Source of the DNA: Candidatus Buchananbacteria bacterium RIFCSPHIGHO2_02_FULL_56_16
GTDB lineage: Bacteria; Patescibacteriota; Patescibacteriia; Buchananbacterales; UBA6539
DNA: 57,335 nt
Reading direction: 5' to 3'
NCBI GenBank assembly: GCA_001817495.1
Contig: MHIL01000023.1
Coordinates: forward strand, 1 to 57,335
This document shows positions 11,203 to 44,238 of the stretch, piece after piece. Within the stretch, counting starts at the first letter, position 1, and each line of letters starts with the position of its first letter. The notes beneath the pieces were generated by a model. That model made no database searches, was not told where the DNA came from, and saw only the letters and a program-made list of their open reading frames with translations. Position numbers and translations under genes: made by a program.

Positions 11203-11211
11203 GTTCGCGCT

Positions 11212-12063: not shown

Positions 12064-12067
12064 AACC

Positions 12068-22363: not shown

Positions 22364-23218
22364 TTGAAAAAAATGGCCCAATCAGCCAAAAAATCAACCA
22401 ACTTAACTATCCTGTCTGATATCTACCAAGAGCAAGAGACCGGATCATCGGCGAACCGCGGCGAGCGGTACCCAGTCAGCGAAAAAATTAAGGCGTATTT
22501 TAACGCCCCCCAAACGGTGGAAAAGTGGTTAGCGGGGGCGGTTTTATTTTTCGGCGCCGCTGGCATCATCTTTGGTTTTAACCACTTTAAAAGTTTGATT
22601 GCCAAACCCTTCGACCGTCCGCTGCCCGAAAGCAACACCAGCTTCGCCGCCGCGACCAACCCTGTTGATCAAGACCTGCTTGGCTTACGCCAGAAAGACA
22701 CGGACCAGGACGGCCTCTCGGACTACGACGAGCTCTACGTCTACCAGACCAGCCCCTTTCTCGAGGATTCAGATTCGGATGGTATAGAGGATCAGAAAGA
22801 AATTGCCAGTAATAGCAACCCCAACTGTCCGAAGGGCGCTGATTGCACCGGCGCCGCGGCCGAACGTACCGTGGCTGAAAATACCGCGCCAGCCGCGGCC
22901 GACCTGGACGCCGGCTCGCTTCGGACATTGCTGCAAAACGCCGGCGTATCAGCTGATGTGCTGAACGCCATCAGCGATGAGGAGCTGCTGCGCACCTACC
23001 TCGAGGTAACCGGCGGTACGGTCGCGAGCTCCACCGCCACCACGGCGGGGCCGGCCCAGCCGGCGGGCAGCTCATCGGCCGCTGACCAGATTAGTCAGCT
23101 TACCCCGGCCCAGCTGCGGCAGCTGCTGCAAGAGCAGGGGATTCCGCCGGAAACGTTGCGTCAAGTGAGCGACGAGGAGCTTCTTAAGCTGGTTTCAGAG
23201 ACGCTTCAGGGTTACTAA
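22364..23218 (+). CDS. Membrane-anchored protein with thrombospondin-type-3 Ca-binding repeats and a duplicated C-terminal helical motif
   Basis: It has a TM segment and DTDQDGLSDYDE...DSDSDGIEDQKE repeats. The motif LR.LLQ..G......L..(I/V)SDEELL occurs twice. The start is TTG at 22364 or ATG at 22373, and the gene ends 6 nt before the giant gene. Confidence 0.6.
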   Translation: MKKMAQSAKKSTNLTILSDIYQEQETGSSANRGERYPVSEKIKAYFNAPQTVEKWLAGAVLFFGAAGIIFGFNHFKSLIAKPFDRPLPESNTSFAAATNPVDQDLLGLRQKDTDQDGLSDYDELYVYQTSPFLEDSDSDGIEDQKEIASNSNPNCPKGADCTGAAAERTVAENTAPAAADLDAGSLRTLLQNAGVSADVLNAISDEELLRTYLEVTGGTVASSTATTAGPAQPAGSSSAADQISQLTPAQLRQLLQEQGIPPETLRQVSDEELLKLVSETLQGY

Positions 23219-23224
23219 ACTACC

Positions 23225-26200
23225 ATGATACACCAAGTACACCAAGACAAGCAGCGCGAGGCAAACCGCAGGAGCCGGCCGGTGGCGAGGTTCATCCTGT
23301 CGGGTTGCATGTTGCTGACGCTGGCGCTGGGCTTGGTCGCGCCGGCAATGCTCTACCCGACCCCGGCGGCCGCGGCCGGCATACCGACCTTTGACGCCGC
23401 GAACCTTCGAGCGTGGTTTAGCCAAATCGGCTATAACTTCGCTGAACAAGCTGAACGTCTAGCACAGCAGATCGAGAAGCGGACGGCGGCGATTGCTTTC
23501 AAATCAGCCTTACATTTATTCCTCAACAACCTTGCTTACGATTCGGCGACCTGGCTGGCCGCCGGCGGCAAGGGCCAGACCCCGTACTTTCATACTGATA
23601 GCTGGGGAGCGTACCTGACCAAGGCCGCTGACGGCGCGGCCGGTGATTTTATCAGCAAACTCGGTGAATCGTGGCTTGACGGCTTCAACGTCTGCCAGCC
23701 GGATCTGCCGTTTCGGATTAACGTGGCTCAAGGGTTTCAAGACAATTTTATCCGTCGCCAGCCCGACTGTACCGCCAGCGAACTGGCCCGAGACTGGGAG
23801 CGCTTCGTCCAGCGCGACGACTTTCTTAGCCAGTTCGTCAAGCAATTCAATTCGCAGCAGAACGAGGTTCTCATCGGCTTGACGCTTTGGGACAAGTACT
23901 ATCAAGCCCTCTCGTTTGAAACCAAGACTAAAGAGCAGGATCGAATCGAAGGCCAGGGTTTCCAGCCGGTTACGTCGGCGATATCCGGCAAGATTCTTAC
24001 CCCCGCCAGCCTGACCAAAGCCCAGGCGGATGCCTTGATTAACAATCAGGCCGACGCCGAGAAAATCAGCACCGGCGACATCGTGGCTGACGCCATCAGC
24101 ACGTTTATTAATACCTTAGCCGGCAAGCTGTTTCAGCGGCTGTTCAAGGAAGGACTGGCGAGCCTGCGGGATGATGATGATGCTCGGCGAAGTTTCATTA
24201 GCCGTGATCTCTATACCGGTGAGAGCGGCCGCGACCTGTTCACCGGCCGGCAGGCGGCCGAGGCGCGCTACGTAACGCTGGTTGACGCCGGCATCATTAC
24301 CGGCGGGCCGTACGAACTTTTGCAGCAGCTCGCCACCTGCCGGGATTTGAGCAACCCGGGCCCGGAAGAGTGCGTCATTGACCAAAATTTTCGTTTGGCG
24401 ATTGAGCAAGAGATGACGGTTCGGGAGGCGATTGACGCCGGCTACCTGGACGGCAGCGCGCCGTTCGGCTTTATTTCCCCGGGGGTTGCGCCGCCCTACG
24501 CCGGGGACAAGAAGGGCTACCCCTACCGCAGCCTGCTGATTCTGCGGGCCCACCGGATCATCCCGGTTACTTGGGAGGTGGCCGCTAAAATTATTGATGA
24601 GGGATTTACCGGCAGCGACCGGGTCGTGACGCTGAATGCCTTGATTGCCGAGTATGATAACTCGGACAGCCCCTTCTACCGCCTGATTGACCAATACTGG
24701 GTGCTGAAAGCGCCGGAAGCGTTCTGCAAGGCGGAAGGCTACGGGCCGGTCATCATCAGCGATCAGGTCAGCAACGACGGCCAGCGGATCGTGACGCGCA
24801 GCCAGTACTGCGCCGACTACCAGTCGTGCATTGAGAAAGACAGCAAGGGCAAGTGCATCTACGGCTACTGCACCGAGGAACAGCCAACCTGGAACCTCCA
24901 GGCCGAGAGCTGCCTGCCCGAGTACAGCACCTGCCAGACTTTCGTGAACGGCGGCGGCCAGACGGTTTCCTACCTCCAGAATACCCTTAACTACAACAGC
25001 TGCAGCGCGGACAACGCCGGCTGCCAGTGGTACTGCCAGTCGTACAATGTTCCGAGCGCCACCTGGGCTTGCGTTAATGCCGGCGAGCAGGTGCTGAAAC
25101 CGTGCGCCGCGCCCAGCGGCTGCCCGCTCAACGCCGGCTGCAGCATCGCTGAAGCCGGGACATTCTGCACCGACGCGGTCAGTGGCGCGAACCTGACCAT
25201 CAGCACCGCCTGCAGCCCCAGCACCCAGTGGTGGCAAGCCGATCTCTTCGGAACGGGTGTCGGCGGCTGCCAGGCCGGCGCCAGCTGCACCGTCGAGTAC
25301 CAGGGAGTTCAGTGCGTCCAGACCGGCTGCGAGAGCCGCCAGAACCTGCTGCCCAACCCCGGCTTTGAAACCGCCGCCCCGGCCGGCACCCTGGCCGCGA
25401 AGTGGGGCGGGGATCCGGCCTACTTCGAACGGGTGAGCGGCGGGCAGGAGCGGATCCACCGCGGCCGCAGCAGCGTGCGCTTCTACAATGCCGGCAGTAT
25501 GGCCGGCGTAACGATGCGGTCCGATGAGCTGACCGTACCCCGCGCCGGCGCCTACACCGTGAGCGGCTACGTCTTTGACCGGCTGAATGTCGGGTCAATC
25601 TCGTTCAGCGTTTTGGTAAACGGCGGCGCCGTGGCTGACCCGCCGGTCATGCTGACCCAAACCGCCAAGAATCGCTGGTACCAGGTGAGCTTTGATACGC
25701 CGGCGCTGAACGCGAACGACAGGATCAAGATCGTGGTAATCGTCGCCGGCGAGCAGGTCAGCGGCCTGGCCTGGTTCGACGACTTCAGCCTGACCGAGAG
25801 CTGCCTGGTCAATCCGGTGACCCTGACGCTGGCCGGCGCCATCGCCGAAGATGAGAGCAAGATCCACTTCGACCGCGACGCGAAGCAGTGCAGCGCCGAA
25901 GCTGACGGCTGCTCCCAGTTCTACGCTTCGCCGACCCGGCGGATCAGCAACCTCCTGTTTAGCGTTACCGACCCGAGCTTTGAGCTGTACCAAGACAGTA
26001 CCACCCAGCCCGGGGATCAGGATTTCAAGAACTGGACTGCCGTCAGAGCCGTTGTTAAAGCCAGCAGCGATGCTCACAGCGGCGGAGCCGCGATGCAGCT
26101 GCGAGACGACAGTGGCGGCGCCGAAACCTATGTTTCGCTCACGTTTGATACGGGCGAGCCGCTCAACGAGCGGATGTTCATTGTTTCCTACTACGCGAAA

Positions 26201-29200
26201 ACGGTCAACGCTGATGACTTTCAATGTAACGGCAGCGATGAAAATATAGTCCCGCCAAATCTTCGAGGGGGCTGCCATGAGTGGGACAAGAATTACGCTA
26301 ACTTTGTCCGATCGCCTGACGCCGTCGGCGGCAACATCATGATCAACGGTATCAGTTCAGTTGGGCTCAACGACCAGTGGCAGCGGTTCTCGGCGGTCCT
26401 CGCCATCAACGATCCCGTGTTCGACGCCGCTAAAAAACTGGAAATTATTTTGTACACTATTACTCAAGGTACCGGCTCGATCCTCTACGATGACATCCAG
26501 CTCGAGGAGGTTACCGGCAGCGTCCGGACTGAAGCGGTGCCGTTCCAAGGCTACACCACGCTGACGGAAACCCACCTGCGCAAGGCGCCGGACTACCTTG
26601 GCTGCCAGGGCTTCAGCCTGGAACGGCCCAGCGACTATGTGCTCAACGGCGTGACCGAAGCCAGCTGTATCGGTGACACTCTGGTTTGGCGGCCGGAGAG
26701 CTGCGTTGGCGGCTTCTGCTGCCGCCAGATAGACCCGCCCGAGTGCGCCGGCTACGCCCCGTACTGCCAGGCCGACGAGATCGGCTGCCAGTCGTTTACG
26801 CCGCTCCAGGGCGGGCTGCCCGTTCCCGGTGTCGCCGCTGCCGACGACTACTGCGGCGCTGAATGCGTGGGCTACGACGCGTTCAAGCAGGCGCCGACCT
26901 ACTTTGAGCGGACCCAGTCCATCGAATTCTTCATCCCCAAGACCGCGGAACAGTGCAGCCTGGCCCAGGCCGGCTGCGACGAGTTCACCAACCTCGACGA
27001 GGCAGGGGCCGGCGGCGAAGATCGCGAGTACTACCAGTACCTGCGCCAGTGCACCAAACCCGGCGCGGCCGGGGTGAGCTGCGGCACCTTCTACAGCTGG
27101 CAGGGTTCGGACGACAGCGGCTATCAGCTCTCAACCTACAGTTTAAAGACCGCCGGTGCCAGCCCCAACGAGGTCATCGAGTACAATCCGGCCAGCCCCG
27201 ACGAGGTCGCCTACCCTGACGCCTGGTGCGACAACAAATCCGACGGTGATGGCGACGGTTCACCAGACTGCTGCGACGCCTCTGAAGACTTAACCCAGAA
27301 CCCGTTCTGCCGGGAATTCTTCGACCGCGACGGAGGCGTTCACTACGTCCTGGAACAAAACACGATCACCTGTTCAGATGATTGCCACCCCTACCGAAAG
27401 ACCCGCCTCGGAGAAACCGATGCCGAAGCCCAGGCGAACTGTTCGGCCTCGAACCCGGCCTACACGGGAGCGGCACTGAATCCCGGCTGGCAGGACAACG
27501 CCTGCGTCTACTACGCCATCCCCGATCAGGGTGTCGCCTGCCCGGCCCAAGCCGCGGGCTGCCGCGAGTACCGCGGCAACGCCGGCGGCAACGTCTTCAC
27601 CGCGTTTTACGACAGCTTTGAAGACGGCGACAGCCTCGGCTGGCAGACCGGTCAGATGAGCAGCCTGGCGCTCTCGGTCGGCGGCCACTCGATCAAGAGC
27701 CAGTCGGGCACGCTCCAGACCATGGCCGCCTCGATGGGCGCGGCAACCTGCGACGCTGCCCTGACGGTCTGCGACGGAGCAACGTATCCCTGCTACCAAG
27801 CGGCGACGAACACCTGCCTCGCCCAAGAGCCAACCGGCCAGACCTGCGAGGTCGCGCTTGGGACGACTGATTGCGGCGTGTTTGATGCCGCTTTCGCGAG
27901 CGGCCGTGACTACCTGCTCACCTTCTGGGCCCGGAGCGAATCGGGCAATACGCCGGTTACCATGCAGCTTACCGACAGCGCTGGGGCGACGACAATTGCC
28001 CAAGTCGCGCTGACCGCGAACTGGCAGTACTACACGTTCGGGCCGATCCGCTACGACTGGCCGCGCGGCACCAAGCTGGTTGCCCGGAACGCGAATAGCA
28101 AGGACTTCTTCTTCGACAACGTTACCTTCAAGGAGATTACCGGCTACGTCTACGCCATTAAAAATTCCTGGCAGACGCCAACGAGCTGCGACACCAACCC
28201 GTTCGTCAGCCCGGCGGTGCCCGCGCCGCAGTTTATGCTCGGCTGCCAGCAGTACCGGGATTCCAGTAACCAAATCCACAACCTCAAGTCGTTTTCCAGC
28301 CTCTGCCGCGAAGACGCGGTCGGCTGCGAAGCGCTGCTCGACACCTTTAACTCGGACGACCCGTTCGCGAGTGAGTTTAACACCGCCGACGCCGCCGGCA
28401 CGGTGACGGTACCCCAGGATCGGGTGGTTACCATGGTCAACAGCGCCGAGTTCCGCTGCGACTCGACCCAGGAAGGCTGCCAGCGCCTCGGCCGGCCCAG
28501 CCTCGACCAGAGCGGCGCGGTGGCCGGCTACACCGATGCGTACGTCTTGAACGATCCGGATCAGTACCCAACCACGCTCTGCGGCAGCGGCGAAGTGGGC
28601 TGCGCCGAGTTTCAGACCAACCATGGCTTCTTCTACTTCAAAGCGCCCGGGCTGCAGACCTGCGAGTACCGGCAGATTCCCAACCAGCCGGGCGGCTTTG
28701 GCTGGTTTAAGATCGGTTCCGCCTCGGCCACGCCGGACTGCCCGATTACCCGCTCGCCTTTGGGTATCGTCCACCCGGCGACCGGCTGGACCGGGCTGTG
28801 TCCGGCCGGCGCGGCCAGCTGCACCGAGTTCATTGATCCGGTGAGTAACAATGCGAAGAACTTGATTTTTAACGTGGACTTTAAGCAGGATCTCGACCTT
28901 AACGGCAAACCCGACGGCTGGAGCAGTTTGCTCAGCGCGCTGGAGCAAACGATCACCCTGACGCGCAACACCCTCTACACCGTGGCGATCAGCTCGAACG
29001 GCACCGCGCTGGACAGTTCCGATCTTGAGGTACAGATTACCGGCTGCCCGGGTATCACTTCACCCGACCACTCAATGGTCAGCGCCGGCACGGACGCGCT
29101 CCAGCTGCCGGTCTCCGACTTCAAGGGCGACCGGCTGCGCCGGCCCGACCTGCCGGATGAACGGCAGTACTCGGCCCGGTTCTTCGTGCCGGCGGCGGGC

Positions 29201-32200
29201 GGCGGCACCTGTACGCTGCGGCTCAACCCGGGCGGCGCCTCCTCAATCACCAGCCTCTTGCAGGCGGTGGCCGTACGCGAGAGCGGGGTGGACTACGTGC
29301 TCGCAAGCGACGTTAACAAGACCGGCTGCAACGGCATCGTCAACGAGCTCAACGGCTGCGTCTTGTTTAACGACCGCAGCGGTGTCAACTACAAGATCGG
29401 AGAGACCGACAACTCGTACCTCCGCTTCGACGCCGACATGAGCCGGCCGGGCGTCAACAGCAGCGTGCCGGTGGCAAACTGCGGCGGCGCCTGCGACAGC
29501 AGCACCATTTTGAAGGTTCGTCCGGACCGAACCTGCGGCCAGTGGCTCGACTGCCAGACCAAGGTTAAGTCGGTTGACGCGAGCGGCAACGAGGTTACCT
29601 ACTGCGTCGAGCTCGCGGCTTGCGATGAATTGAACGAGTCCGGCGAGTGCACGAACTTCATCTTATCCGACCGCCAGAAGGTTAACGGCTCGAATGACAA
29701 CACCACGGTTGAGTTCCTTAACCACGATAAAATTGCCTACCTCTCGGGCTACGCCAAAGCCGGTTCAACCCTTGCCGACGCAACGGGTGCGCAGGGGGTG
29801 ATACCCGGCGCGGCGTTTGATGCCGCTAACACCTTCAACGGCTACTACCCGTTCAACCTGATGAGCCAGTTCGGCGAGGTGGCGAAGGTGCCGAACGGCA
29901 GCTTTGAGGACTACCCCGAGGTCGAGTACCCGGTTGGTTGGGCCTGGCAGAACGGCGACGGCCGGCGCTGGGGCAGCCACCTCTTCCGGGTGATCTCGAG
30001 CGTGGTTGAGGCCCAGGACAACGAGGGCATCACGCTGCAGGGCCGGGCGTCGCTTAAGCTGAATGCAGACAACGTCGTCATTTCTGATCCGATTTCAGTT
30101 TTACCCAATACCGACTATACCTTGAGCGCCAGTATTAATACGTTAAACCTTCAGCCGACTGAAGCCGAGGCGATTGTTGATCTGGTTGACGCTTCGGGTA
30201 ACCAGCTCGCCCCGCCCGTCGAGCTCCGGCTCAAAGCGCGGCTGGACTGGACCAGCCTTTCGGTGATCGTTAACCGTACCGCCATTACCGGTACCGAAGT
30301 CAGGGTTCGCCTCCGCAACTTCCATCCCAATACCGCACTGATTGCCGAGTCTTCCTACTTTGATAACATCCAGATGCTGCCTACCCTCGAGGTTCAGGCG
30401 CTGCCGCCGTACACCGGCGAGAAGAATTACGTCAGCCGCTCCTGCCGCGTCTTCCCCCAGCAGGACTCGCTGGCCTGCAGCTACCGCGATACGGCCGGCG
30501 CCATCCAGCAGGGCTGGTCCGGCTACTGTTTGGAGCCAGACCCCCAGCGGTCCGGCGTCTGCCTCCAGTGGTGGCCGGTTGACCTGATCAAGGGCGACGC
30601 CTTCGGCACCTACATTGGCTACAACGGCCGGCTGCCGCTCTACTACTGCATGGAGACGAGCATGTCCACGACGCGGATAGAGTTCCTTAAAGAAGGAGAT
30701 ATGACGATCAGTGGTGACTATAATGACGTAACACCAGAGATTGATAAGAACAATTTGGATAAAGATAAATGTATTACGTATAAGAAGCCAAATGGCGGAA
30801 AACTTGAATTTCCCGATGGGTCGAGCGTTACGTTAACCGGCGGAAATAGATGCGGGTCCGACTGGGTGGTCGGCGTCTGTAAGTATGAGGGAGAAAAAAC
30901 CGCTGATATTGATATTTTTCATAAGAACCTCATTGACCGGATTAGGGTCTTTAGCCTTGCAGATGATGGTGACGTTGCCCACAGCATGGAGGGCTGGCTT
31001 GGTTACTGCTTTAACATGTCCGTGGAGGGTAAGGTCGAGTTTTTTGATGTTGAAGCAACTCCTAAATTTGGAGGTACGGTGCCAGTTACCGCCAGTCCAA
31101 ACCAAACTTGGCTCGCGGCCACTAACGGCAAGGTTTGCTCATACGGGGGTAAAGCAATTTTTGACAAGGAAGGATTACTGGATCAGATGTGGTTTTGGAT
31201 CGCCGATCAATCTAGTAAGTGCACCCATAACTTCGAGTGGCAAATTGGGGTTGATGTTCATCTGAATCGGAACTATTGTACGCTGCTGGCTCAAACCGTG
31301 ACGCCTGTCGGTGAGAACAAAGCCTGGGTGTCACGGGTGGCAGAAGGCAGCTCGTACGACGACCTCGAGTGCACGGTTAATGGCACGAAGCCGCTCTTCT
31401 CGATTAACGGTGCCTGCGCGCCGGGAGTTGACTGCGTGTTCGTCAATAGCGAAAAGACGTACCGTTGCGATACCGATGCGAACTTTGACGGTGTACCGGA
31501 TGGAGCACGCTGCAGCGTCTGCGAGTACAACACCGACTACGCGCCGTTCGGCGCCGCGGTACCCGAGGATCCCTACAATATTACCAACTCGGACAAGCTC
31601 TACTGGCAATTGCCGGACACGGAAAACTTTGAGCCGCCCTACCAGGCGCGTATGGGCCAGGTGCCCTACACCTATGGCACGGCGCCCAGCGCCTACAGCA
31701 CCTACCTCAAGCGCCTGTTCGCCCAGAGCTTCAGCTTCTGGAAATGGCAAGAGATTGGGGATCTGGTTTGCCTAGGCGGAACTAATGACGGAAAGGTCTG
31801 CACTGATAGCAGCCCGCAATGTCCCCAAGGTTCATGCATTGATCGTGGCACCCTTTGTCAAGGTAATACCTCAACGCGAGGGGCGGAGTGCAACGTGGCA
31901 GCGTGTGGTTTTGATAGCGGTGGTGTGAGTATCCCCTGCATAGAAGTTAATGACCTAAGTGAGTGCGAGGGTAGTGCCTGTGATAAAGTTTTCGCTTGTG
32001 ACTTCAACGCTAACGGCAGTTGGGATGTTGGCACAGATAAGCGCTGTTGTCCCGTGTCTGTTGCCGGTGGTCCGGATCCAACTTGTGAACAGAAGTATAG
32101 CTGTTCAGATGATAGTTTGAATGCGGGGCAAGAGTGTACGTTCAATGCTGATGAGTGTCCGGGTGGCACCTGCGCGCAGCAGCGTCAGGGTTTCCAGCCG

Positions 32201-33133
32201 GACTTAAGAGTCACTTGTCCAGCAGGAATTCTCTGCTTGCAGGTCACAGGAACTGATGAGTTCCGCTGCGGCGGCACTTCCGGCGGCGCGCTTTGCAGCC
32301 CTTTCCGCTGGAGTCCGCCTGACCGGTTGTGTGAGACGCTGACTGGTCTGAATGACAATAGCCGGCCGACAACGTTGAATTTCAGTACCGATGCCGACTA
32401 CTGCGCCATCGCGCCGCTGGTTAAAAACATCCTGATTAACGGCCAGAACGGAACCGCTGCGCCGCTCAAAATTATTAACCAGCGCGGTTCCGGCTCGGCG
32501 ACCCTGCTGTTTAACGCGGTGCTTGACGGCAACCAGCTGCCGCTGACCGCCTACCAGGTTGACTGGGGCGATGGCTCCAAGGTGGCGGTGTCCGGCACCA
32601 ACCTGCGCGACCGCTCGAACACCGTGGCGCCTTACAAGCTGACCCACTCCTACAGCTACTACGAAATTTTATCCCAGAATCAGAGCGGCGACCGGATCTA
32701 CTGTTCGGCCGTGCTTGGCGATGTGCCAGCTGGGGTGCTGCCTAAAGGCTTTTGCTCCGGCGGTCCAACGCCCGGCGCCAGCTGCGAGAATTCGACGCAG
32801 TGTTCGCCGGGCGGCGTCTGTAACCTCACTTGGTGCGCGGTCAAGCCGCGGATTCAGATTCAGGACAACTGGGGCTGGTGCAACGGCAGCATTGATCCGG
32901 GCAGCGGCGTGCTCCTGGGGCCGCAGTGGGGCTATCGCGTCGGCAGCGGAGCGCCCAACTGCAGCAGCGACGGCAGCGGCGTCTGTGCCGGAGGTACCGC
33001 GCCCGGTAGTGCATGTACGACGGTAGCGCCGTGCGCTGGCGGCGGGGTCTGCCAGCTCGATAACGCTGACGCCTGGACGACGTTTGGCGGTGCGAGCGCG
33101 AGCGGCTACGTCATTGTCGGGATCAACGATTAG
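23225..33133 (+). CDS. Giant (3302 aa) Cys-rich extracellular protein with an N-terminal signal-anchor; putative adhesin or pilus-tip protein
   Basis: It is a single uninterrupted ORF with genome-typical codon bias. It has an N-terminal TM segment, several jelly-roll/CBM-like domain starts (NLLPNPGFE, VPNGSFEDY), a PKD-like YQVDWGDGS motif, a recurrent GC-x-(E/Q)-(F/Y) motif and C-terminal C-x-GG-x-PG-x-C knots. Confidence 0.85.
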   Translation: MIHQVHQDKQREANRRSRPVARFILSGCMLLTLALGLVAPAMLYPTPAAAAGIPTFDAANLRAWFSQIGYNFAEQAERLAQQIEKRTAAIAFKSALHLFLNNLAYDSATWLAAGGKGQTPYFHTDSWGAYLTKAADGAAGDFISKLGESWLDGFNVCQPDLPFRINVAQGFQDNFIRRQPDCTASELARDWERFVQRDDFLSQFVKQFNSQQNEVLIGLTLWDKYYQALSFETKTKEQDRIEGQGFQPVTSAISGKILTPASLTKAQADALINNQADAEKISTGDIVADAISTFINTLAGKLFQRLFKEGLASLRDDDDARRSFISRDLYTGESGRDLFTGRQAAEARYVTLVDAGIITGGPYELLQQLATCRDLSNPGPEECVIDQNFRLAIEQEMTVREAIDAGYLDGSAPFGFISPGVAPPYAGDKKGYPYRSLLILRAHRIIPVTWEVAAKIIDEGFTGSDRVVTLNALIAEYDNSDSPFYRLIDQYWVLKAPEAFCKAEGYGPVIISDQVSNDGQRIVTRSQYCADYQSCIEKDSKGKCIYGYCTEEQPTWNLQAESCLPEYSTCQTFVNGGGQTVSYLQNTLNYNSCSADNAGCQWYCQSYNVPSATWACVNAGEQVLKPCAAPSGCPLNAGCSIAEAGTFCTDAVSGANLTISTACSPSTQWWQADLFGTGVGGCQAGASCTVEYQGVQCVQTGCESRQNLLPNPGFETAAPAGTLAAKWGGDPAYFERVSGGQERIHRGRSSVRFYNAGSMAGVTMRSDELTVPRAGAYTVSGYVFDRLNVGSISFSVLVNGGAVADPPVMLTQTAKNRWYQVSFDTPALNANDRIKIVVIVAGEQVSGLAWFDDFSLTESCLVNPVTLTLAGAIAEDESKIHFDRDAKQCSAEADGCSQFYASPTRRISNLLFSVTDPSFELYQDSTTQPGDQDFKNWTAVRAVVKASSDAHSGGAAMQLRDDSGGAETYVSLTFDTGEPLNERMFIVSYYAKTVNADDFQCNGSDENIVPPNLRGGCHEWDKNYANFVRSPDAVGGNIMINGISSVGLNDQWQRFSAVLAINDPVFDAAKKLEIILYTITQGTGSILYDDIQLEEVTGSVRTEAVPFQGYTTLTETHLRKAPDYLGCQGFSLERPSDYVLNGVTEASCIGDTLVWRPESCVGGFCCRQIDPPECAGYAPYCQADEIGCQSFTPLQGGLPVPGVAAADDYCGAECVGYDAFKQAPTYFERTQSIEFFIPKTAEQCSLAQAGCDEFTNLDEAGAGGEDREYYQYLRQCTKPGAAGVSCGTFYSWQGSDDSGYQLSTYSLKTAGASPNEVIEYNPASPDEVAYPDAWCDNKSDGDGDGSPDCCDASEDLTQNPFCREFFDRDGGVHYVLEQNTITCSDDCHPYRKTRLGETDAEAQANCSASNPAYTGAALNPGWQDNACVYYAIPDQGVACPAQAAGCREYRGNAGGNVFTAFYDSFEDGDSLGWQTGQMSSLALSVGGHSIKSQSGTLQTMAASMGAATCDAALTVCDGATYPCYQAATNTCLAQEPTGQTCEVALGTTDCGVFDAAFASGRDYLLTFWARSESGNTPVTMQLTDSAGATTIAQVALTANWQYYTFGPIRYDWPRGTKLVARNANSKDFFFDNVTFKEITGYVYAIKNSWQTPTSCDTNPFVSPAVPAPQFMLGCQQYRDSSNQIHNLKSFSSLCREDAVGCEALLDTFNSDDPFASEFNTADAAGTVTVPQDRVVTMVNSAEFRCDSTQEGCQRLGRPSLDQSGAVAGYTDAYVLNDPDQYPTTLCGSGEVGCAEFQTNHGFFYFKAPGLQTCEYRQIPNQPGGFGWFKIGSASATPDCPITRSPLGIVHPATGWTGLCPAGAASCTEFIDPVSNNAKNLIFNVDFKQDLDLNGKPDGWSSLLSALEQTITLTRNTLYTVAISSNGTALDSSDLEVQITGCPGITSPDHSMVSAGTDALQLPVSDFKGDRLRRPDLPDERQYSARFFVPAAGGGTCTLRLNPGGASSITSLLQAVAVRESGVDYVLASDVNKTGCNGIVNELNGCVLFNDRSGVNYKIGETDNSYLRFDADMSRPGVNSSVPVANCGGACDSSTILKVRPDRTCGQWLDCQTKVKSVDASGNEVTYCVELAACDELNESGECTNFILSDRQKVNGSNDNTTVEFLNHDKIAYLSGYAKAGSTLADATGAQGVIPGAAFDAANTFNGYYPFNLMSQFGEVAKVPNGSFEDYPEVEYPVGWAWQNGDGRRWGSHLFRVISSVVEAQDNEGITLQGRASLKLNADNVVISDPISVLPNTDYTLSASINTLNLQPTEAEAIVDLVDASGNQLAPPVELRLKARLDWTSLSVIVNRTAITGTEVRVRLRNFHPNTALIAESSYFDNIQMLPTLEVQALPPYTGEKNYVSRSCRVFPQQDSLACSYRDTAGAIQQGWSGYCLEPDPQRSGVCLQWWPVDLIKGDAFGTYIGYNGRLPLYYCMETSMSTTRIEFLKEGDMTISGDYNDVTPEIDKNNLDKDKCITYKKPNGGKLEFPDGSSVTLTGGNRCGSDWVVGVCKYEGEKTADIDIFHKNLIDRIRVFSLADDGDVAHSMEGWLGYCFNMSVEGKVEFFDVEATPKFGGTVPVTASPNQTWLAATNGKVCSYGGKAIFDKEGLLDQMWFWIADQSSKCTHNFEWQIGVDVHLNRNYCTLLAQTVTPVGENKAWVSRVAEGSSYDDLECTVNGTKPLFSINGACAPGVDCVFVNSEKTYRCDTDANFDGVPDGARCSVCEYNTDYAPFGAAVPEDPYNITNSDKLYWQLPDTENFEPPYQARMGQVPYTYGTAPSAYSTYLKRLFAQSFSFWKWQEIGDLVCLGGTNDGKVCTDSSPQCPQGSCIDRGTLCQGNTSTRGAECNVAACGFDSGGVSIPCIEVNDLSECEGSACDKVFACDFNANGSWDVGTDKRCCPVSVAGGPDPTCEQKYSCSDDSLNAGQECTFNADECPGGTCAQQRQGFQPDLRVTCPAGILCLQVTGTDEFRCGGTSGGALCSPFRWSPPDRLCETLTGLNDNSRPTTLNFSTDADYCAIAPLVKNILINGQNGTAAPLKIINQRGSGSATLLFNAVLDGNQLPLTAYQVDWGDGSKVAVSGTNLRDRSNTVAPYKLTHSYSYYEILSQNQSGDRIYCSAVLGDVPAGVLPKGFCSGGPTPGASCENSTQCSPGGVCNLTWCAVKPRIQIQDNWGWCNGSIDPGSGVLLGPQWGYRVGSGAPNCSSDGSGVCAGGTAPGSACTTVAPCAGGGVCQLDNADAWTTFGGASASGYVIVGIND

Positions 33134-33155
33134 TACGAGCAAGAAGAATTTCTTA

Positions 33156-33640
33156 AGTACCCCGTTCTTGGGGTAAGAGGGGGAACTAAGGTTAAAATGA
33201 TCGGGCCCGCTACGCCAACGCGTTAGCGTGGCGAGGGAGTTACGAGAATAGGTCAAAGCCGTAACCCCTTCTAACTTCCCCTTAACGTAAGGGGAAGGAT
33301 ACTTGGGCAGCGCTTTATGCTTATTCGCAGCATTTGCCTTGACAAGAAGAACATCGTAAGCACCCCCCTCTTGGGTTAAGAGGGGGAGCTAAGGTGAGAT
33401 TAAGTGGGCCCGCTACGCCAACGCGTTAGCGTGGCGAGGGAGTTACGAGTAATGCTGAAGCCTGCCCGCGCGCGGCGCGCAGGCGGGCCGTAACCCCTTC
33501 CCCGCCTCGACTCGCCTTCGGTAAAGCCACGGCGAGGCGGGTAACTTCCCCTTAACGTAAGGGGAAGGATACCAGGTAAGAGCTTTATGCTTATCTGCCT
33601 GAGCGTTGCACGCAGACAGGTTCGCAGCATTCGCATGAGT
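33156..33640. repeat. Two tandem copies of a structured intergenic module of about 200-280 nt (candidate ncRNA or MITE pair)
   Basis: Copy 1 is about 33156-33348 and copy 2 about 33357-33640. They share identical blocks of 44 nt (33203-33246 = 33407-33450) and 31 nt (taacttccccttaacgtaaggggaaggatac). Copy 2 differs by three inserted hairpins. Confidence 0.75.
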
Positions 33641-33678
33641 TCGCATCATTAGCATCGCGTATTGAAAAAAAGATTACG

Positions 33679-36600
33679 ATGAAAACGTGGAGGAACATCC
33701 TGAATCGGCGAACGGTCCTGACGGCGCTGTGTCTTTTCGCGCTTGCCGTTACCGTTTTTACCGTTGCCGTATCCGCGCCACTCGTATTGGCTCAAGAAGA
33801 GCCGCCCCGCCCAACGAGCGACTACGAGCAAGACGATCTTGGGCCGTTAGAGGCCGGGTCCTCCGGCGCTTTCAATACACGGCCAACACCTGTCAAAAAG
33901 GCCGAGGCAGAAGAATCAAATGTCTTTCTCTCAACCTTCGTAAATCTACTGGTCGGAGGATTGGCCAGGATCGTCATCTGGCTCGAGGGGTTTGTCATAA
34001 CTGCTCTGATCGCGATCTTGCTCCTCGTGGTTAAGTATAACAGCTTCGCGACCGCTGGGGCGGTCAGCAACGGCTGGACCTTGGTCCGTGACGTTGCCAA
34101 CCTGTTCTTCGTGGTCGTGCTGCTGGGTATCGCGCTGGCCACGATCCTGCGGGTTGAATCCTACAACTTCAAGAAGCTGCTGCCCAAGCTGATCCTGATG
34201 GCGATTCTGGTCAACTTCAGCAAGGTCATCGCCGGCCTGATCATTGACTTCGCCCAGGTGGTGATGCTCACCTTCGTCGCCGCCTTCGCCGGCGTTTCCG
34301 GCGCCGGCAACATGGTAACTACCCTGCAGATCCAGTCAATTATTACCTACAACTGGTCCAACGCCGCGGAGGCGAGCGCGGCAAACTTCACGGGTACGGC
34401 GCTGCTGATGGCGATCATGCTGCTGATTACCATTGGGGTCCTGCTGGTGATGCTCGTCGTGCTGGTGATGCGCATCGTGATGCTCTGGGTGCTGGTGGTG
34501 CTCTCGCCGCTGGCCTACATCATGGCCGCGTTTCCCCAGGGGCAGCGCTACGCCCAGCAGTGGTGGCAGGAGTTCACCAAGTACGTGATTGTCGGCCCGG
34601 TGCTCGGATTCTTCCTCTGGCTGACCTTCGCCGTCGCCAGCGCCGGGGACATTGCCCAAAAAGAGTTTGGCAGCCAGAAAGGCTTAGCCGCTGCCGGCGC
34701 CGGTGACGCGTTGAGCGCGAAGCTTGCCAAGCAGGCCGGAGTTCAAACGAAAATCGGCCAAACCGACCATCTGCTGTCGTTTATCATCGCCATTGCCATG
34801 CTGATGGGGTCCTTGGTCATTACCCAGCAGATCGGCGTGGCCGGCAGCCAGTTCGCGGGGTCGATGTTTAATAAGATTCGCCAAACCGGGCTCAAGGCGC
34901 TCCTGGCGCCGGGCAGGGCGGTGGGCTGGACCGCGAAGACCGCGGCCAAGGCGCCGTTTCAATTTGTCGGCCGCAAGGTCAATGAGGCAATCGGTGAAGG
35001 CAAATTGCCGGCCTGGGCGAGTCCGGCCGGGATGGTTCGCGGGTGGGGTGCACGGCGGGCAGAATTGTATGATGTATCAAAACGTAAAGCTGCCGCTGCT
35101 GGCCATGAAAAATGGGAACAGCTTTTTACCGGAACATCGTTGCCTCGGGTATCACAAATTGAATTAGCGGAAGAATCTAAGTTCGCTAAAGATTTTGCGG
35201 ACGTATACGATAAAGAACAAATGGCAGCAGAGTGGGTTGGATTAAGGAACGCGCCGCAATCGGCGGAAATTAGGGCTAAAAAAAGAGGCTTGATCAAGGC
35301 TGGCGGCGTAGCGGGTTTTTTGGATGATATAATGGCTCATCCGGAAACGAAAGCACATACTCGCAATTACATCAAGAATTTGTATAAAACGACCAAGGAT
35401 GATCAACTAAAAGCGGCTATGGATGAAAAGGATGAGAAAACCGGCTTAAGTCTAATGGATAATGTAAACGATGATAAGGGTGCATGGTACAACTGGCAAA
35501 CACTCCATTTCTTTTTGCAAGAGTCTCTCGGGAGCGATCAGGCCGGGATGACGACGATGCAAACCCTTGAAGATATTGGCAAAAAAAATGGTCATCCAGA
35601 ATACGGTGGCCATGATACCTATCGATCATCACTCGAAGGCGGCCACGACGAGATGGAAATGGAAAGGATTTATGATCAAAAAGACGCTGCCGGTAAAATT
35701 ATTAGAAAATCTGGTCAAAAACGCATGCAGACTGAACTTTCTAAAATGCAGGGTCGCAGCAGGCTTGGTTTAGCGCCGCATGCATTTATGGCAATGAATA
35801 ATGATGGTACCTACGCTATGGGAATGCCAGAGCGGTTGGCGGCGACAGCTATGTTCGGCGCCCAGGGCGCAAGAATTTTTGAGCACTCTCAAAAGCGAGA
35901 TTGGACCATGGCTATGGGTGGCAGCCCAGATGAAGTGAACTGGGTCGAAGGTCAGGAAACAGAAGTTGCGAATTTTGATAAACCAGATGCATCACTGCGA
36001 AACATAATCAACCACGCCAAAGGTTTTGCTTTTCTTATGCAAAGTGCTGCTAATCCACGAGAGCCAGTCGACGTAATTGTTAAAACGGCGTGGAAAACAA
36101 CTGGTGGAAAAGGTGAGCCCCAGTTTCAGGTTAATGGAAAGGTCTATGGCGCTGATGAATTCTTAAGCGAGTTTGGAGAACAGGCACACGCAACGCCGTC
36201 GCCCGCGCCTACGCCTGGTTCAGCCCCAGCGCCCGGCCCCAGCGCCCCGATGGCTGATATTGACATCGCTAAGCACGAGCGAACCAAGCAGGCGATTGAC
36301 GCCTTTAGCGCTCAAACTGGTTTATCAGCGGCTGATTTTTACCAGTCTCGGTCGTACAAGGCTGATCAGTATACTGCCCAAGGAGATTTTGAGCGTAACG
36401 AGCAGCTGATGGGTGGCTGGCGGCAAGAAATTGGCCGTATCAGGCCGGACGTTGATCAGGCTAACCCCGAGGCGGTCGAGCAGGCGATTCGTGAAGAGCA
36501 GGGTAAAGTTCGGGGTGTGAAGTCGGCTAGCGGCAAAGGTGAAGGTGAGCAGGCCGGCGTTGGGCTTGACTTCTCCGATAAAGACGTCCAGCGCATCTTT

Positions 36601-43094: not shown

Positions 43095-43562
43095 ATGCAG
43101 CAATTCGTCGTCCCCCAATTCATTGACGTTGAAGATAAAATCATCGGTCCGATCACCGTTCGGCAATTTTTGATTTTGCTGGCCGGCGCCGGGGTGTCCT
43201 TTGTCGCCTACAAGCTCTCCGACCTCACCCTCTTTGTCTTTGAGTTCGCGGTCATCTCGCTCATCTTCTTCACCTTCGCGTTCATCAAAATTAACGGCAA
43301 GCCGATTCACTATCTCTTCCTTAACCTCATTCAAACTTCTCGTCGCGCCCGCTTGCGGGTGTGGAAGAAAAAAGTTTTTCATAAGGCCGAGCTGCATAAG
43401 TTGAGTAAAGAAAAAAAAGCCGAGCTGCCGGTGGTGGTTATCGCCAAAAATAAGGTCAAGGCTTCGCGGCTGGCCGAGCTGTCGCTGATCGTTGACACGG
43501 GCGGCATCTACCAGGGCGAGGCGCTCCCGCTGGCTAAGGGCGGCAAGGAGCAGCTGTTATGA
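43095..43562 (+). CDS. PrgI-family (VirB3-like) small T4SS membrane protein
   Basis: It has the N-terminal VPQFIDVEDKIIGPITVRQF motif followed by two TM helices. Its stop overlaps the next start (ATGA). Confidence 0.65.
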   Translation: MQQFVVPQFIDVEDKIIGPITVRQFLILLAGAGVSFVAYKLSDLTLFVFEFAVISLIFFTFAFIKINGKPIHYLFLNLIQTSRRARLRVWKKKVFHKAELHKLSKEKKAELPVVVIAKNKVKASRLAELSLIVDTGGIYQGEALPLAKGGKEQLL

Positions 43563-44236: not shown

Positions 44237-44238
44237 CC

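What the first reader, a model, noticed from the sequence alone, without database searches (positions are those of the whole stretch)
23225..33133. 3302-aa Cys-rich modular extracellular protein of unrecognised architecture
This is a single uninterrupted 9.9-kb ORF with an N-terminal signal-anchor. At least five segments begin like beta-jelly-roll/CBM4_9-type modules: NLLPNPGFE at ~25340, DPSFELY at ~25965, FYDSFEDGD at ~27605, NLIFNVDF at ~28858 and VPNGSFEDY at ~29888. It has a PKD-like YQVDWGDGS motif at ~32555. The C-terminus has repeated small disulfide knots (C-x-GG-x-x-PG-x-x-C-x5-C-x-GG-x-C at ~32750-32830 and ~32985-33055). Cysteine is extremely abundant, which fits the dedicated DsbA in the pilin operon. 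I could recognise no enzymatic motif and no cell-wall anchor motif. Giant proteins of this kind in reduced genomes are prime candidates for host-interaction factors.
Basis: partly seen in the sequence, partly recalled or inferred. Interest (0 to 1): 0.8.

Follow-up and report, generated by a model that had tools for sequence, protein, structure and literature searches.

The report
Giant secreted lectin-like protein beside VirB6
The 3302-residue gene is real and belongs to a large, so far undescribed family of giant, secreted, disulfide-rich proteins with sugar-binding-type modules that ultra-small Patescibacteria (here Candidatus Buchananbacteria) almost always encode right next to a type IV secretion channel gene, making it a strong candidate for the missing host-contact part of that machine.

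Summary
Window 23225-33133 (+) is one uninterrupted ORF of 3302 aa with 137 Cys, and every quoted motif sits where stated. It is not an orphan. A full HMMER scan found about 1,000 family clusters at 50% identity, nearly all 2,400-3,800 aa and collinear along most of their length. 523 GTDB species representatives encode a relative (Buchanan-, Falkow-, Uhr- and Kerfeldbacteria). The same 3302-aa protein occurs on independent contigs.

The family has a Sec-type signal peptide, so cleavage is more likely than a signal-anchor. A ~550-aa N-terminal domain follows, with no Pfam, NCBIfam or PDB relative. Four of the five proposed jelly-roll modules are supported as CBM4/22-like, by profile comparison for M1, M2, M3 and M5 and by AlphaFold plus Foldseek for M1 and M2. 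Ten C-x6-C hairpins are about 100% conserved. The inserts and the C-terminal knots are lineage-specific. Membership of the PKD family is not supported.

The gene sits in a conserved block: small TSP3-repeat membrane protein, giant, extended VirB6-like protein, ~420-aa protein. This block lies inside the ABY1-type Patescibacteria type IV secretion neighbourhood (PrgI, TrsD-like, VirB4, VirB2-like pilins, DsbA).

My best reading is an extracellular glycan-binding stalk or adhesin coupled to that secretion system. The function is inferred, not shown.

The parts
22364..23218 (+). Small membrane protein of 284 aa: cytoplasmic N-terminus, one TM helix at about aa 52-72, extracellular TSP3-type Ca-binding repeats. 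It is the conserved upstream partner and ends 6 nt before the giant gene.
   Evidence: Pfam TSP3_bac is sub-threshold. TM segment. A homologue lies directly upstream in 62 of 65 loci that have enough flank. The genes overlap by 4 nt in L083.
23225..33133 (+). Giant ORF, 3302 aa. Candidatus Buchananbacteria OGY51122.1 / UniProt A0A1G1YFK1 differs from it by one residue (N1677Y).
23225..23377 (+). Signal peptide, aa 1-51: basic n-region, hydrophobic core, then ...PTPAAAA|GIP.
   Evidence: Single hydrophobic window. A-x-A-type sites are seen by eye in many homologue N-termini. SignalP was not available.
23378..24724 (+). Family-defining N-terminal domain, aa 52-500. It has long helices plus a confidently modelled alpha/beta subdomain (aa ~365-495). 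Near-invariant motifs include AYDTATWLASGGKGQxPMF, GYPYRSxxILRKxRIxPVGWExAA and LVDPxWVLKAP.
   Evidence: Conserved in 150 of 150 hits. Alignments A1/A2. AlphaFold pLDDT is 80-93 only for aa ~365-495. No Pfam family in 20 members. No PDB match by sequence or fold.
24725..25321 (+). Cys-rich region 1, aa 501-699. The first ~120 aa have 12 invariant or near-invariant Cys (YCADEQSCIxExxDGSCxxYGYCTEE...NTCQTF...). The remainder is variable.
25322..25834 (+). Jelly-roll module M1, aa 700-870. Present in only about 30% of family members.
   Evidence: AlphaFold pLDDT 85-92. Foldseek matches CBM22, CBM61, CBM4 and CBM16. hhalign to M5 98%. Occupancy.
25937..26509 (+). Jelly-roll module M2, aa 905-1095.
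   Evidence: AlphaFold pLDDT 80-89. hhalign M1~M2 96.8%. Orthologues P0016 and P0043 have Pfam CBM_4_9 at 54.7 and 59.7 bits at this position.
26510..27586 (+). Conserved Cys-rich region 2, aa 1096-1454, with C-x6-C hairpins at aa 1181, 1244 and 1439 and motifs such as CSAxxxGCDEFTNLD and CREFY...CHPYR.
27587..28159 (+). Jelly-roll module M3, aa 1455-1645, carrying a lineage-specific 6-Cys insert at aa 1509-1550.
   Evidence: Pfam CBM_4_9 E=2.4e-4, 21.9 bits, below the 25.9 cut-off. hhalign M1~M3 89%. Insert.
28160..28831 (+). Run of four C-x6-C hairpin units at aa 1694, 1745, 1786 and 1859. All Cys are about 100% conserved.
28832..29314 (+). Module M4, aa 1870-2030. It starts like the others (NLxFNxxF), but the fold is unverified.
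   Evidence: hhalign to M1-M5 gives only 4-49% probability. No Pfam hit.
29315..29866 (+). Conserved Cys-rich region 4, aa 2031-2214 (CNGxVxxxxGCVLFN...PDRxCxxWLxC).
29867..30409 (+). Jelly-roll module M5, aa 2215-2395.
   Evidence: hhalign M1~M5 98% over 142 columns. The family profile hits CBM4-2 and CBM16 PDB chains at E 0.002-0.007 over full length. 6 of 15 members hit CBM_4_9 below threshold.
30410..31759 (+). Middle region, aa 2396-2845, of unknown fold. Conserved at aa 2400-2450 (CRLYPxxDSLSC...GWxGYCLE...WWPVD) and at about aa 2650-2830. A variable insert lies at aa 2500-2650.
31760..32386 (+). Lineage-specific Cys-dense block, aa 2846-3054, with about 22 Cys, most in fewer than 25% of members.
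32387..32704 (+). Conserved module with LPLxxYxVDWGD, aa 3055-3160. Probably an Ig-like sandwich. PKD membership is not supported.
   Evidence: Occupancy 0.96. 0 of 21 members hit PKD in Pfam. The only PDB sequence hit is a designed Ig at E=0.011.
32705..33133 (+). Variable C-terminal tail, aa 3161-3302, with two 4-Cys 'C-x-GG...PG...C-x5-C-x-GG-x-C' units. No anchor motif.
   Evidence: (EB and Dickkopf_N, sub-threshold).
33134..33678 (.). 545-nt spacer holding a tandemly duplicated, hairpin-rich element. It is a lineage-specific insertion between the giant gene and the VirB6-like gene.
   Evidence: Relatives have gaps of 4-35 nt at this position.
33679..38430 (+). Extended VirB6/TrbL-like protein, 1583 aa: signal/TM segment, about 9 TM helices, then a ~1200-aa hydrophilic tail.
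   Evidence: Pfam TrbL E=8.7e-4, below cut-off. 612 homologues, many carrying PF04610 or PF19590. TM segments. Downstream of the giant gene in 22 of 25 informative loci.
38457..39707 (+). Conserved 416-aa soluble protein of unknown function. It is the fourth gene of the block.
   Evidence: Equivalent genes of 412, 423 and 445 aa follow the VirB6-like gene in L002, L086 and L088. Homology was confirmed by tblastn only for L002, L018 and L027.
43095..46158 (+). T4SS core genes: PrgI (VirB3-like) 43095-43562, 225-aa TrsD/TraC-like 43559-44236, VirB4-like ATPase 44239-46158.
   Evidence: TraC-like PF26593 on the equivalent gene in L002 and L087.
10435..13150 (+). DsbA (10435-11202) and two VirB2-like T4SS pilins with Cys-rich tails (11212-12063, 12020-13150).
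   Evidence: The same DsbA-pilin pair is near the giant gene in loci such as L056, L062, L064 and L075 and L085.

Best explanation
The gene encodes a Sec-exported, strongly acidic protein of about 3,250 residues, probably stapled by disulfides. It is the Candidatus Buchananbacteria member of a large conserved family in ABY1-type Patescibacteria.

Architecture, read N to C:
- a novel ~450-aa helical plus alpha/beta domain;
- a conserved scaffold of short C-x6-C hairpins and other Cys-rich linkers;
- four to five CBM4/22-like jelly-roll modules carried on that scaffold;
- an Ig-like module;
- lineage-specific Cys-dense inserts and a variable tail.

Proposed mechanism (inferred, not shown):
1. 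After export, oxidative folding by the neighbourhood DsbA makes a long, rigid extracellular stalk.
2. Its conserved N-terminal domain is held at the cell surface by the products of the flanking genes, the small TSP3-repeat membrane protein and the extended VirB6-like channel subunit.
3. Its lectin-type modules and variable inserts bind surface glycans of the host cell.
4. This positions or stabilises the Patescibacteria type IV secretion apparatus at the contact site. That adhesin role was reported as undetected in this phylum.
For: **Shown**
- The ORF is real and recurs in independent assemblies.
- The family is large. There are 1318 representatives at E<=1e-3 and 1025 at E<=1e-30, mostly 2.4-3.8 kaa. 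523 GTDB species loci encode a relative.
- Members are collinear over aa 50-600, 850-2450 and 3050-3200.
- The N-terminus is of export type.
- 58 of 137 Cys are at least 80% conserved, in pairs. The mature protein has an even 136 Cys and a pI of 4.5.
- The jelly-roll CBM fold is supported for M1 and M2, with homology extending to M3 and M5.
- The same tandem CBM-cenC modules dominate phage tail-fibre and receptor-binding proteins in the viral structure library.

**Context**
- A TSP3-like gene lies upstream in 62 of 65 loci. A VirB6-like gene lies downstream in 22 of 25 loci, and in 49 loci overall.
- The VirB6 linkage survives in 7 loci that have lost the ksgA neighbour.
- Gaps are small or overlapping in many loci.
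- The block is contiguous with or near PrgI, TrsD-like and VirB4 in the window, L002 and L087.
- DsbA and Cys-rich VirB2-like pilins are in the same neighbourhood.

**Literature**
- The Patescibacteria T4SS derives from the monoderm MPF-FATA type. It is essential for epibiotic growth in Saccharibacteria, and no PrgB-like adhesin was detected in the phylum (PMC12102498; PMC12857230; PMC10633639).
- ABY1 T4SS loci typically carry comF, recG and radA and lie near ksgA, as this window does.
Against: - No experiment bears on this, and there is no direct evidence of a physical link to VirB6 or the T4SS.
- The neighbourhood also conserves housekeeping genes (leuS, ksgA, metK). Part of the synteny may therefore be simple genome collinearity.
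- In L086 and L088 no VirB4 lies within 10 kb of the block.
- The family seems restricted to ABY1-type lineages, whereas the T4SS is phylum-wide. It cannot be a universal component.
- In most of the loci where the gap could be measured (about 32 of 47), 0.3-3 kb separates the giant gene from the VirB6-like gene, usually with one to three small ORFs.
- Sugar binding is inferred from fold only. Binding-site residues were not examined.
- The window's own modules are below Pfam thresholds.
- The N-domain models have low confidence outside aa 365-495.
- Retention at the surface has no identified anchor.
Confidence: 0.5

Rival explanations
1. It is a general cell-surface coat or adhesin protein, working like an S-layer or spacer, independently of type IV secretion. 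On this view its position beside virB6 is inherited genome order rather than functional coupling.
For: Housekeeping genes (leuS, ksgA, metK) are also syntenic around it. VirB4 is not nearby in L086 and L088. About 32 of 47 measured loci have 0.3-3 kb between the giant gene and virB6. The fixed architecture and conserved scaffold look structural.
Against: Linkage to the TSP3-like gene (62 of 65) and the VirB6-like gene (22 of 25) exceeds that to ksgA (46 of 56), and persists in 7 loci where ksgA is gone. Gaps are tight or overlapping in a sizeable minority of loci. In L046 the downstream genes are T4SS pilins instead. No SLH or other S-layer anchoring domain was found.
Confidence: 0.27
2. It is a giant secreted enzyme. 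The novel N-terminal domain, with invariant D, E, R and W residues, would be a new glycan- or peptidoglycan-cleaving catalytic domain. The CBM-like modules would target it to host or self cell wall, supplying the VirB1-type wall-opening activity that is rarely found beside Patescibacteria virB4.
For: Invariant or near-invariant D91, R390, R396, R399, W405, E406, D444 and W447 in the N-domain alignments. CBM4/22 modules are normally appended to glycoside hydrolases. VirB1 homologues are scarce near virB4 in most Patescibacteria classes.
Against: No hit to any catalytic family in Pfam, NCBIfam, PHROGs or PDB, by sequence or fold. The domain is predicted to be largely long helices. The window already has an SLT-like motif fused to a pilin. 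Conserved charged residues are equally expected at a protein-protein interface.
Confidence: 0.12
3. It is a polymorphic toxin or effector of the RHS/YD or MuF type, or a secretion-system substrate with a variable C-terminal toxic tip.
For: The C-terminal third is variable. The protein is giant and sits next to a secretion system.
Against: No RHS/YD repeats, toxin domains or immunity-like small gene were found. The variable parts are Cys-rich knots, not enzyme-sized domains. A Sec signal peptide argues against T4SS-dependent export from the cytoplasm.
Confidence: 0.03
4. It is an assembly artefact or a fusion of several genes.
For: None found.
Against: Near-identical 3302-aa proteins (1-2 differences) are on three contigs from different sources. 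An independent contig is 99.94% identical. 58 complete orthologous ORFs of 2248-3851 aa exist in species representatives, and none is interrupted.
Confidence: 0.01

Closest known systems
CBM4 / CBM16 / CBM22 / CBM61 carbohydrate-binding modules (Pfam CBM_4_9, 'CBM-cenC')
   Same: Modules M1 and M2 are modelled as the same beta-jelly-roll. Foldseek gives target-normalised TM-scores of 0.61-0.75, rmsd 3.5-4.4 A. The M5 family profile aligns over full length with CBM4-2 and CBM16 chains. Orthologues pass the Pfam CBM_4_9 threshold at the M2 position. UniProt already labels a near-identical protein (A0A1G1YFK1, one residue different) 'CBM-cenC domain-containing'.
   Different: The modules here are not attached to any recognisable glycoside hydrolase. 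The window's own modules are below the Pfam cut-offs. They are embedded in a conserved disulfide-hairpin scaffold about 3,000 aa long. Ligand-binding residues were not checked.
Surface adhesins of Gram-positive conjugative T4SS (PrgB/aggregation substance and PrgC of pCF10) and external adhesins of the H. pylori Cag T4SS (CagL, CagI)
   Same: These are large or specialised extracellular proteins encoded with a type IV secretion system, and they make the cell-cell contact. That is the role proposed here, and it fills the 'no adhesin detected' gap noted for Patescibacteria.
   Different: There is no sequence or domain relationship and no LPXTG sortase anchor. This protein is 2-3 times larger and Cys-rich. 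It is linked to virB6 rather than to a regulated prgA-C cassette. The function is not tested.
Patescibacteria T4SS loci (Quinonero-Coronel et al. 2025; Wang et al. 2023)
   Same: The window has the described ABY1-type set: PrgI, TrsD-like, VirB4, VirB6-like and VirB2-like pilins, with comF- and recG-type neighbours and ksgA nearby.
   Different: In the sections and term searches I read, those studies do not mention the giant protein. Genes without Pfam, NCBIfam or TIGRFAM hits were left unannotated.
Phage tail fibres, minor tail proteins and tip attachment proteins with tandem CBM-cenC modules
   Same: These are the best structural matches in the viral library, E down to 9e-17. They too are elongated devices that use tandem jelly-rolls to recognise bacterial cell-surface glycans.
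   Different: The similarity is confined to the jelly-roll modules. There are no tail-fibre N-terminal or trimerisation domains and no phage context.
Giant proteins of other uncultivated bacteria, such as the Omnitrophota giant genes (West-Roberts et al. 2023, listed)
   Same: They are very large secreted multi-domain proteins in host-dependent or predatory uncultivated lineages.
   Different: Comparison rests on the title and abstract only; I did not read that paper or compare sequences. This family is about ten times smaller than the largest proteins the abstract mentions (~40,000 aa or more). Here the architecture is fixed and collinear, and the gene has a specific secretion-system neighbour.

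Membership tests
CBM_4_9 / CBM4-22-type jelly-roll modules | Beta-jelly-roll (galactose-binding-domain-like) fold of about 150-170 aa | tested here: met
   The AlphaFold model has pLDDT 80-92 for M1 and M2. Foldseek matches 2xon CBM61 (TM 0.75), 8xmz (0.73), 2y64 CBM4-2 (0.69) and 2zey CBM16 (0.68), with 255 PDB hits at E<=1e-3.
CBM_4_9 / CBM4-22-type jelly-roll modules | Score above the Pfam PF02018 gathering threshold (25.9 bits) | tested here: not met
   For the window protein there is no hit on the whole protein, and the best module (M3) scores 21.9 bits. The threshold is met by orthologues P0016 (54.7 bits) and P0043 (59.7 bits) at the collinear M2 position, and 6 of 15 M5 orthologues give sub-threshold hits. 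Membership therefore holds at family level by homology.
CBM_4_9 / CBM4-22-type jelly-roll modules | Sugar-binding cleft with aromatic residues; structural Ca site | not tested
   No residue-level comparison or ligand docking was done.
PKD domain | Match to PKD profiles | tested here: not met
   0 of 21 family members hit any PKD family at E<=0.1. The window segment has no hit. The family profile against PDB gives only a designed Ig at E=0.011.
PKD domain | WDFGDG-type motif in an Ig-like sandwich | tested here: inconclusive
   The motif (Y)xVDWGD is conserved across the family. No structure model was made for this segment.
Gram-positive T4SS adhesins (PrgB-like) | LPXTG sortase signal with C-terminal hydrophobic tail | tested here: not met
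   There is no LPXTG followed by a TM or charged tail, and the C-terminus is ...GYVIVGIND.
Gram-positive T4SS adhesins (PrgB-like) | PrgB adhesin or polymer-adhesin domains | tested here: not met
   No Pfam or NCBIfam hits.
Gram-positive T4SS adhesins (PrgB-like) | Encoded within or next to the T4SS gene cluster | tested here: met
   The gene lies next to the VirB6-like gene (545-nt spacer) and 10 kb from PrgI, TrsD-like and VirB4. The arrangement is conserved.
RHS/YD polymorphic toxins | YD/RHS repeats and a C-terminal toxin domain | tested here: not met
   None in Pfam or NCBIfam for the window protein or for three orthologues.
S-layer proteins | SLH or other wall-anchoring domain | tested here: not met
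   No such Pfam hit. Self-assembly cannot be tested here.
Sec-secreted protein with cleavable signal peptide | n-h-c tripartite N-terminus with an A-x-A cleavage motif | tested here: inconclusive
   The pattern was seen by eye in the window protein (PAAAA|G) and in many of the homologue N-termini printed; in 12 of the 132 examined no hydrophobic N-terminal segment was found. No SignalP-type predictor was available, and the 21-residue hydrophobic core could also act as an anchor.
VirB6/TrbL (the downstream neighbour, not the giant) | Polytopic membrane domain matching TrbL profiles | tested here: inconclusive
   The window protein scores TrbL 19.5 bits against a 25.9 cut-off and has about 10 hydrophobic segments. 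Many homologues carry PF04610 or PF19590 in precomputed annotation.

The most novel reading that the evidence does not exclude
The family is the missing extracellular arm of the ABY1 Patescibacteria type IV secretion machine. It would be a ~3,000-residue, disulfide-stapled stalk whose novel N-terminal domain docks on the extended VirB6 subunit and the TSP3-repeat membrane protein. Its lectin modules and hypervariable inserts would select the host. A monoderm T4SS would then reach and hold another cell through a single giant protein, rather than (or in addition to) a pilus or a sortase-anchored adhesin.
Probability: 0.3. Interest if true: 0.85.

Novelty: new variant of a known kind. Interest (0 to 1): 0.62.

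Why it matters
Patescibacteria make up a large share of bacterial diversity and live attached to other cells. Their type IV secretion system is essential for epibiotic growth in the one genetically tractable lineage. What it contacts and transports is unknown, and a phylum-wide survey reported no adhesin.

This work identifies a giant exported protein family with lectin-type modules. It has about 1,000 sequence clusters and occurs in 523 species-level genomes. It is encoded beside the VirB6-like channel gene and has no Pfam model. I found no description of it in the literature I searched.

That gives a concrete candidate for the host-recognition part of the system in the ABY1 class. It also supplies defined modules for glycan-binding assays. 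The pattern of conserved and variable regions can be used to predict host range from metagenomes. The ~450-aa N-terminal domain is itself a new, widely distributed domain of unknown fold.

Tried and rejected
**Searches that failed or gave little**
- A whole-protein search with the search for homologous proteins timed out.
- The same tool with the N-terminal 560 aa found only one hit, because of its word index. The exhaustive HMMER scan was needed.
- Pfam, NCBIfam, PHROGs and PDB sequence searches on the whole protein gave nothing.
- Self-BLAST found no internal repeats. Profile-profile comparison of family sub-alignments was needed to relate the modules.

**Structure prediction**
- The first AlphaFold run of the N-domain, with 20 sequences, gave pLDDT 52.7 and no Foldseek hit.
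- The final run, with 41 rows, improved only the jelly-roll part.
- N-domain profiles against PDB found nothing below E=0.48.

**Other negative results**
- Several look-ups of distant homologues ended at contig ends right after the giant gene, which limited the downstream context.
- Near-identical strain variants differ by only 1-2 residues, too few for any test of diversifying selection.
- The promoter and terminator scan was not above the shuffled expectation.
- Rfam found nothing in the intergenic repeat.

**Readings rejected**
- RHS/YD toxin, S-layer with SLH, LPXTG adhesin, misassembly, and bona fide PKD domain.

Full report
**1. The observation**

Window 23225-33133 (+) is a single ATG-initiated ORF of 3302 codons. 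At about 60% G+C roughly 3% of random codons are stops, so an open run of this length cannot arise by chance. The longest antisense shadow ORF is 524 aa.

The protein has 137 Cys (4.15%). Only one hydrophobic segment exists, at the N-terminus. There is no LPXTG-type anchor. DsbA (10435-11202) next to a T4SS-pilin gene (11212-12063) is confirmed.

The ORF is not an assembly artefact.
- Three contigs of 30.9, 50.4 and 61.7 kb from different sources carry a 3302-aa protein differing by at most two residues. One of these is GenBank OGY51122.1 from Candidatus Buchananbacteria, UniProt A0A1G1YFK1.
- An ENA contig is 99.94% identical to the window over 28.2 kb.

**2. It is a large family with a fixed architecture**

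An exhaustive HMMER scan with aa 1-1200 found 1318 representatives of 50%-identity clusters at E<=1e-3, and 1025 at E<=1e-30. Nearly all are 2,400-3,800 aa.

BLASTP of the full protein against the best 150 shows collinear similarity over aa 50-600 (all of them), 850-2450 (110-140 of 150) and 3050-3200.

A scan of one genome per GTDB species found 523 loci encoding a relative. The best 80 are from Buchanan-, Falkow- and Uhrbacteria and from unclassified Parcubacteria and Patescibacteria MAGs. A Kerfeldbacteria homologue turned up separately. In 58 of those 80 loci the orthologous ORF is complete, at 2248-3851 aa with a median of 2900. Of the other 22, 20 run off the end of the DNA held. None is interrupted.

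A 128-sequence full-length alignment shows that 58 of the 137 Cys are at least 80% conserved, typically in pairs. The family's Cys content is 2.5-5.9%. The mature protein has 136 Cys, an even number, and a pI of 4.5.

Variable or lineage-specific segments are:
- aa 600-850, which includes module M1 (present in about 30% of members);
- aa 1000-1050;
- aa 1500-1550;
- aa 2500-2650;
- aa 2850-3050;
- the last ~150 residues.

**3. Domain anatomy**

*N-terminus.* Most homologues have a classic basic / hydrophobic / A-x-A signal peptide, for example ...VKA|Q or ...AFA|Q. The window protein has ...PTPAAAA|GIP. I read this as a cleavable Sec signal. No predictor was available, so a signal-anchor is not excluded.

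*N-terminal domain (aa ~52-620).* This is the family signature, with invariant Cys, D, E, R and W positions and long motifs.
- It has no Pfam family in any of 20 members.
- It has no PDB relative by profile.
- AlphaFold models it as long helices of low confidence plus one confident alpha/beta subdomain at aa ~365-495, and Foldseek finds nothing for it.

*Jelly-roll modules.*
- Profile-profile comparison of family sub-alignments links M1 to M5 (98%, 142 columns), to M2 (96.8%) and to M3 (89%). M4 is only weakly related.
- In the second AlphaFold model, M1 and M2 are confident beta-sandwiches with pLDDT 80-92. They match CBM22, CBM61, CBM4-2 and CBM16 structures at target-normalised TM-scores of 0.61-0.75, with 255 PDB hits at E<=1e-3.
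- The M5 family profile aligns over full length with CBM4-2 and CBM16 chains at E 0.002-0.007.
- 6 of 15 M5 orthologues give sub-threshold CBM_4_9 hits.
- Orthologues P0016 and P0043 pass the Pfam CBM_4_9 threshold at the M2 position.
- The window's own modules stay below threshold, with M3 best at 21.9 against 25.9 bits.
- In the viral structure library the best matches are phage tail fibres, minor tail proteins and tip-attachment proteins with tandem CBM-cenC modules, E down to 9e-17.

*Between the modules.* Ten copies of a short motif C-x5-[GS]-C-x-x-[FYL] are present. Their Cys are about 100% conserved, and family members have a median of 8 such motifs.

*The 'PKD-like' region.* The segment is conserved (LPLxxYxVDWGD), but 0 of 21 members match PKD in Pfam. 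The only PDB sequence match is a designed Ig at E=0.011. An Ig-like fold is plausible. PKD membership is not supported.

**4. Genomic context**

The window carries the Patescibacteria-type type IV secretion set:
- VirB6/TrbL-like protein of 1583 aa immediately downstream (33679-38430; weak TrbL hit; about 10 TM segments followed by a 1,200-aa hydrophilic tail; homologues carry PF04610 or PF19590);
- PrgI, 43095-43562;
- a TrsD/TraC-like 225-aa protein;
- a VirB4-like ATPase, 44239-46158;
- two VirB2-like pilins beside DsbA;
- ComF-like and RecG neighbours.

This is the arrangement reported for class ABY1.

Across the 80 species loci, the figures are as follows (raw hits).

| Neighbour | Loci with it / loci with enough flank |
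|---|---|
| TSP3-repeat membrane protein, upstream | 62 / 65 |
| VirB6-like gene, downstream (>=3.5 kb of flank) | 22 / 25 (49 loci overall) |
| ksgA, upstream | 46 / 56 |

Seven loci have lost ksgA but keep the VirB6-like gene. Only one shows the reverse.

Gene spacing is often tight.
- The window has a 6-nt gap between the TSP3 gene and the giant gene.
- L083 has a 4-nt overlap at that junction.
- The giant gene and the VirB6-like gene are 4-35 nt apart in L002, L086 and L088.
- The VirB6-like gene and the following ~420-aa gene are 2-26 nt apart or overlapping.

In many Falkowbacteria-type loci, however, one to three small ORFs lie between the giant gene and the VirB6-like gene. The commonest belong to a family of membrane proteins, mostly 165-220 aa.

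PrgI, TrsD-like and VirB4 follow within about 10 kb in the window, L002 and L087. They do not in L086 and L088.

**5. Interpretation**

Shown:
- an export-type N-terminus;
- a conserved Cys framework;
- lectin-type jelly-rolls;
- variable inserts and tail;
- conserved linkage to a TSP3-repeat membrane protein and an extended VirB6-like protein, inside a T4SS neighbourhood that also encodes DsbA.

Inferred: the protein forms an extracellular, disulfide-stabilised stalk whose N-domain is held by its two neighbours. Its CBM-like modules and variable parts bind host surface glycans and so act as the adhesin or spacer of the T4SS.

The literature fits this reading.
- The Patescibacteria T4SS derives from the monoderm MPF-FATA type.
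- It usually lacks a relaxase, and a coupling-protein gene is rarely near virB4.
- It is essential for epibiotic growth in Saccharibacteria.
- 'No adhesins, such as PrgB' were detected phylum-wide.
- Genes without Pfam, NCBIfam or TIGRFAM hits were left grey in that survey, and the giant protein would be one of them.

Rivals:
- a T4SS-independent surface protein whose position reflects conserved genome order, because housekeeping genes are syntenic too;
- a giant enzyme with a novel catalytic N-domain;
- a polymorphic toxin;
- an artefact.

The first two cannot be excluded with these tools. The last two are contradicted by the evidence.

**6. Novelty and score**

The modules are of a known kind, and UniProt's automatic label for the near-identical A0A1G1YFK1 is already 'CBM-cenC domain-containing protein'. 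New here are four things:
- recognition of a very large family with fixed architecture;
- a novel, widely distributed N-terminal domain;
- a conserved disulfide-hairpin scaffold;
- systematic linkage to the VirB6-like gene of the Patescibacteria T4SS.

I found none of these in the papers searched. I rate it a new variant of a known kind, namely a giant secretion-system-associated surface adhesin. Interest is moderately high and function is unproven.

Noticed in passing
window 33134-33678: The 545-nt spacer between the giant gene and the VirB6-like gene holds a tandem duplication of a hairpin-rich element of about 200-270 nt. It includes 107-nt copies at 33140 and 33343 (87% identical), an exact 44-nt repeat at 33203 and 33406, and the perfect hairpin CTTCCCCTTAACGTAAGGGGAAG at 33275 and 33545. 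There is no Rfam match, and the two motifs searched for occur nowhere else in the window. Relatives have only 4-35 nt at this position. It may be a MITE-like insertion or an unknown structured RNA.
   Followed up: partly
window 11212-13150: There are two paralogous VirB2-like T4SS pilins with Cys-rich C-terminal tails (12 and 10 Cys). They overlap by 44 nt and lie directly after DsbA. The second (12020-13150) carries a C-terminal lytic-transglycosylase-like motif (ESGCNPSA...GMMQM), so it may be a pilin-VirB1 fusion.
   Followed up: no
loci L014-L078, e.g. L018:16667-17251 and L030:10781-11431: In about 20 other lineages a conserved membrane protein family, mostly 165-220 aa (...LIPSFGLSLIYINMHVFLRWVFP..FCKLGEEWIPK...), is encoded between the giant gene and the VirB6-like gene. 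A second family with 9 members also occurs there. Neither is present in this window.
   Followed up: partly
window 24000-32000: G+C is uneven inside the giant gene. It is about 63% over 24-30 kb (conserved core) and 54.5% over 30-32 kb, which covers the end of M5, the partly variable middle region and the start of the Cys-dense block. The window average is about 57%.
   Followed up: no
window 46255-46830 and 43559-44236: The 191-aa protein after VirB4 has one N-terminal TM helix and a small C-terminal domain, so it may be a VirB8/PrgL-like component. The 225-aa TrsD/TraC-like protein gives a weak PHROG hit to the terminase large subunit N-terminus (E=2e-7).
   Followed up: no
L086:14754-23336 and L088:18747-22800: In two relatives the giant / VirB6-like / ~420-aa block is followed by an array of four to five paralogous genes with PEP-utilizers (PF00391) domains. 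This is an unusual cluster of unknown meaning.
   Followed up: no
L084:2671-5667 and L085:4632-7625: In two relatives the leucyl-tRNA synthetase upstream of the block is about 1,000 aa long. It carries an inserted alpha/beta-hydrolase domain in one and an inserted NUDIX domain in the other, according to precomputed Pfam hits.
   Followed up: no
L087:6570-8869: In GCA_050949525.1 an IS element (rve transposase) and a Por_Secre_tail protein are inserted between the giant gene and the rest of the T4SS block. The block otherwise stays intact and runs straight into PrgI, TraC-like, VirB4 and a DsbA-like gene.
   Followed up: no
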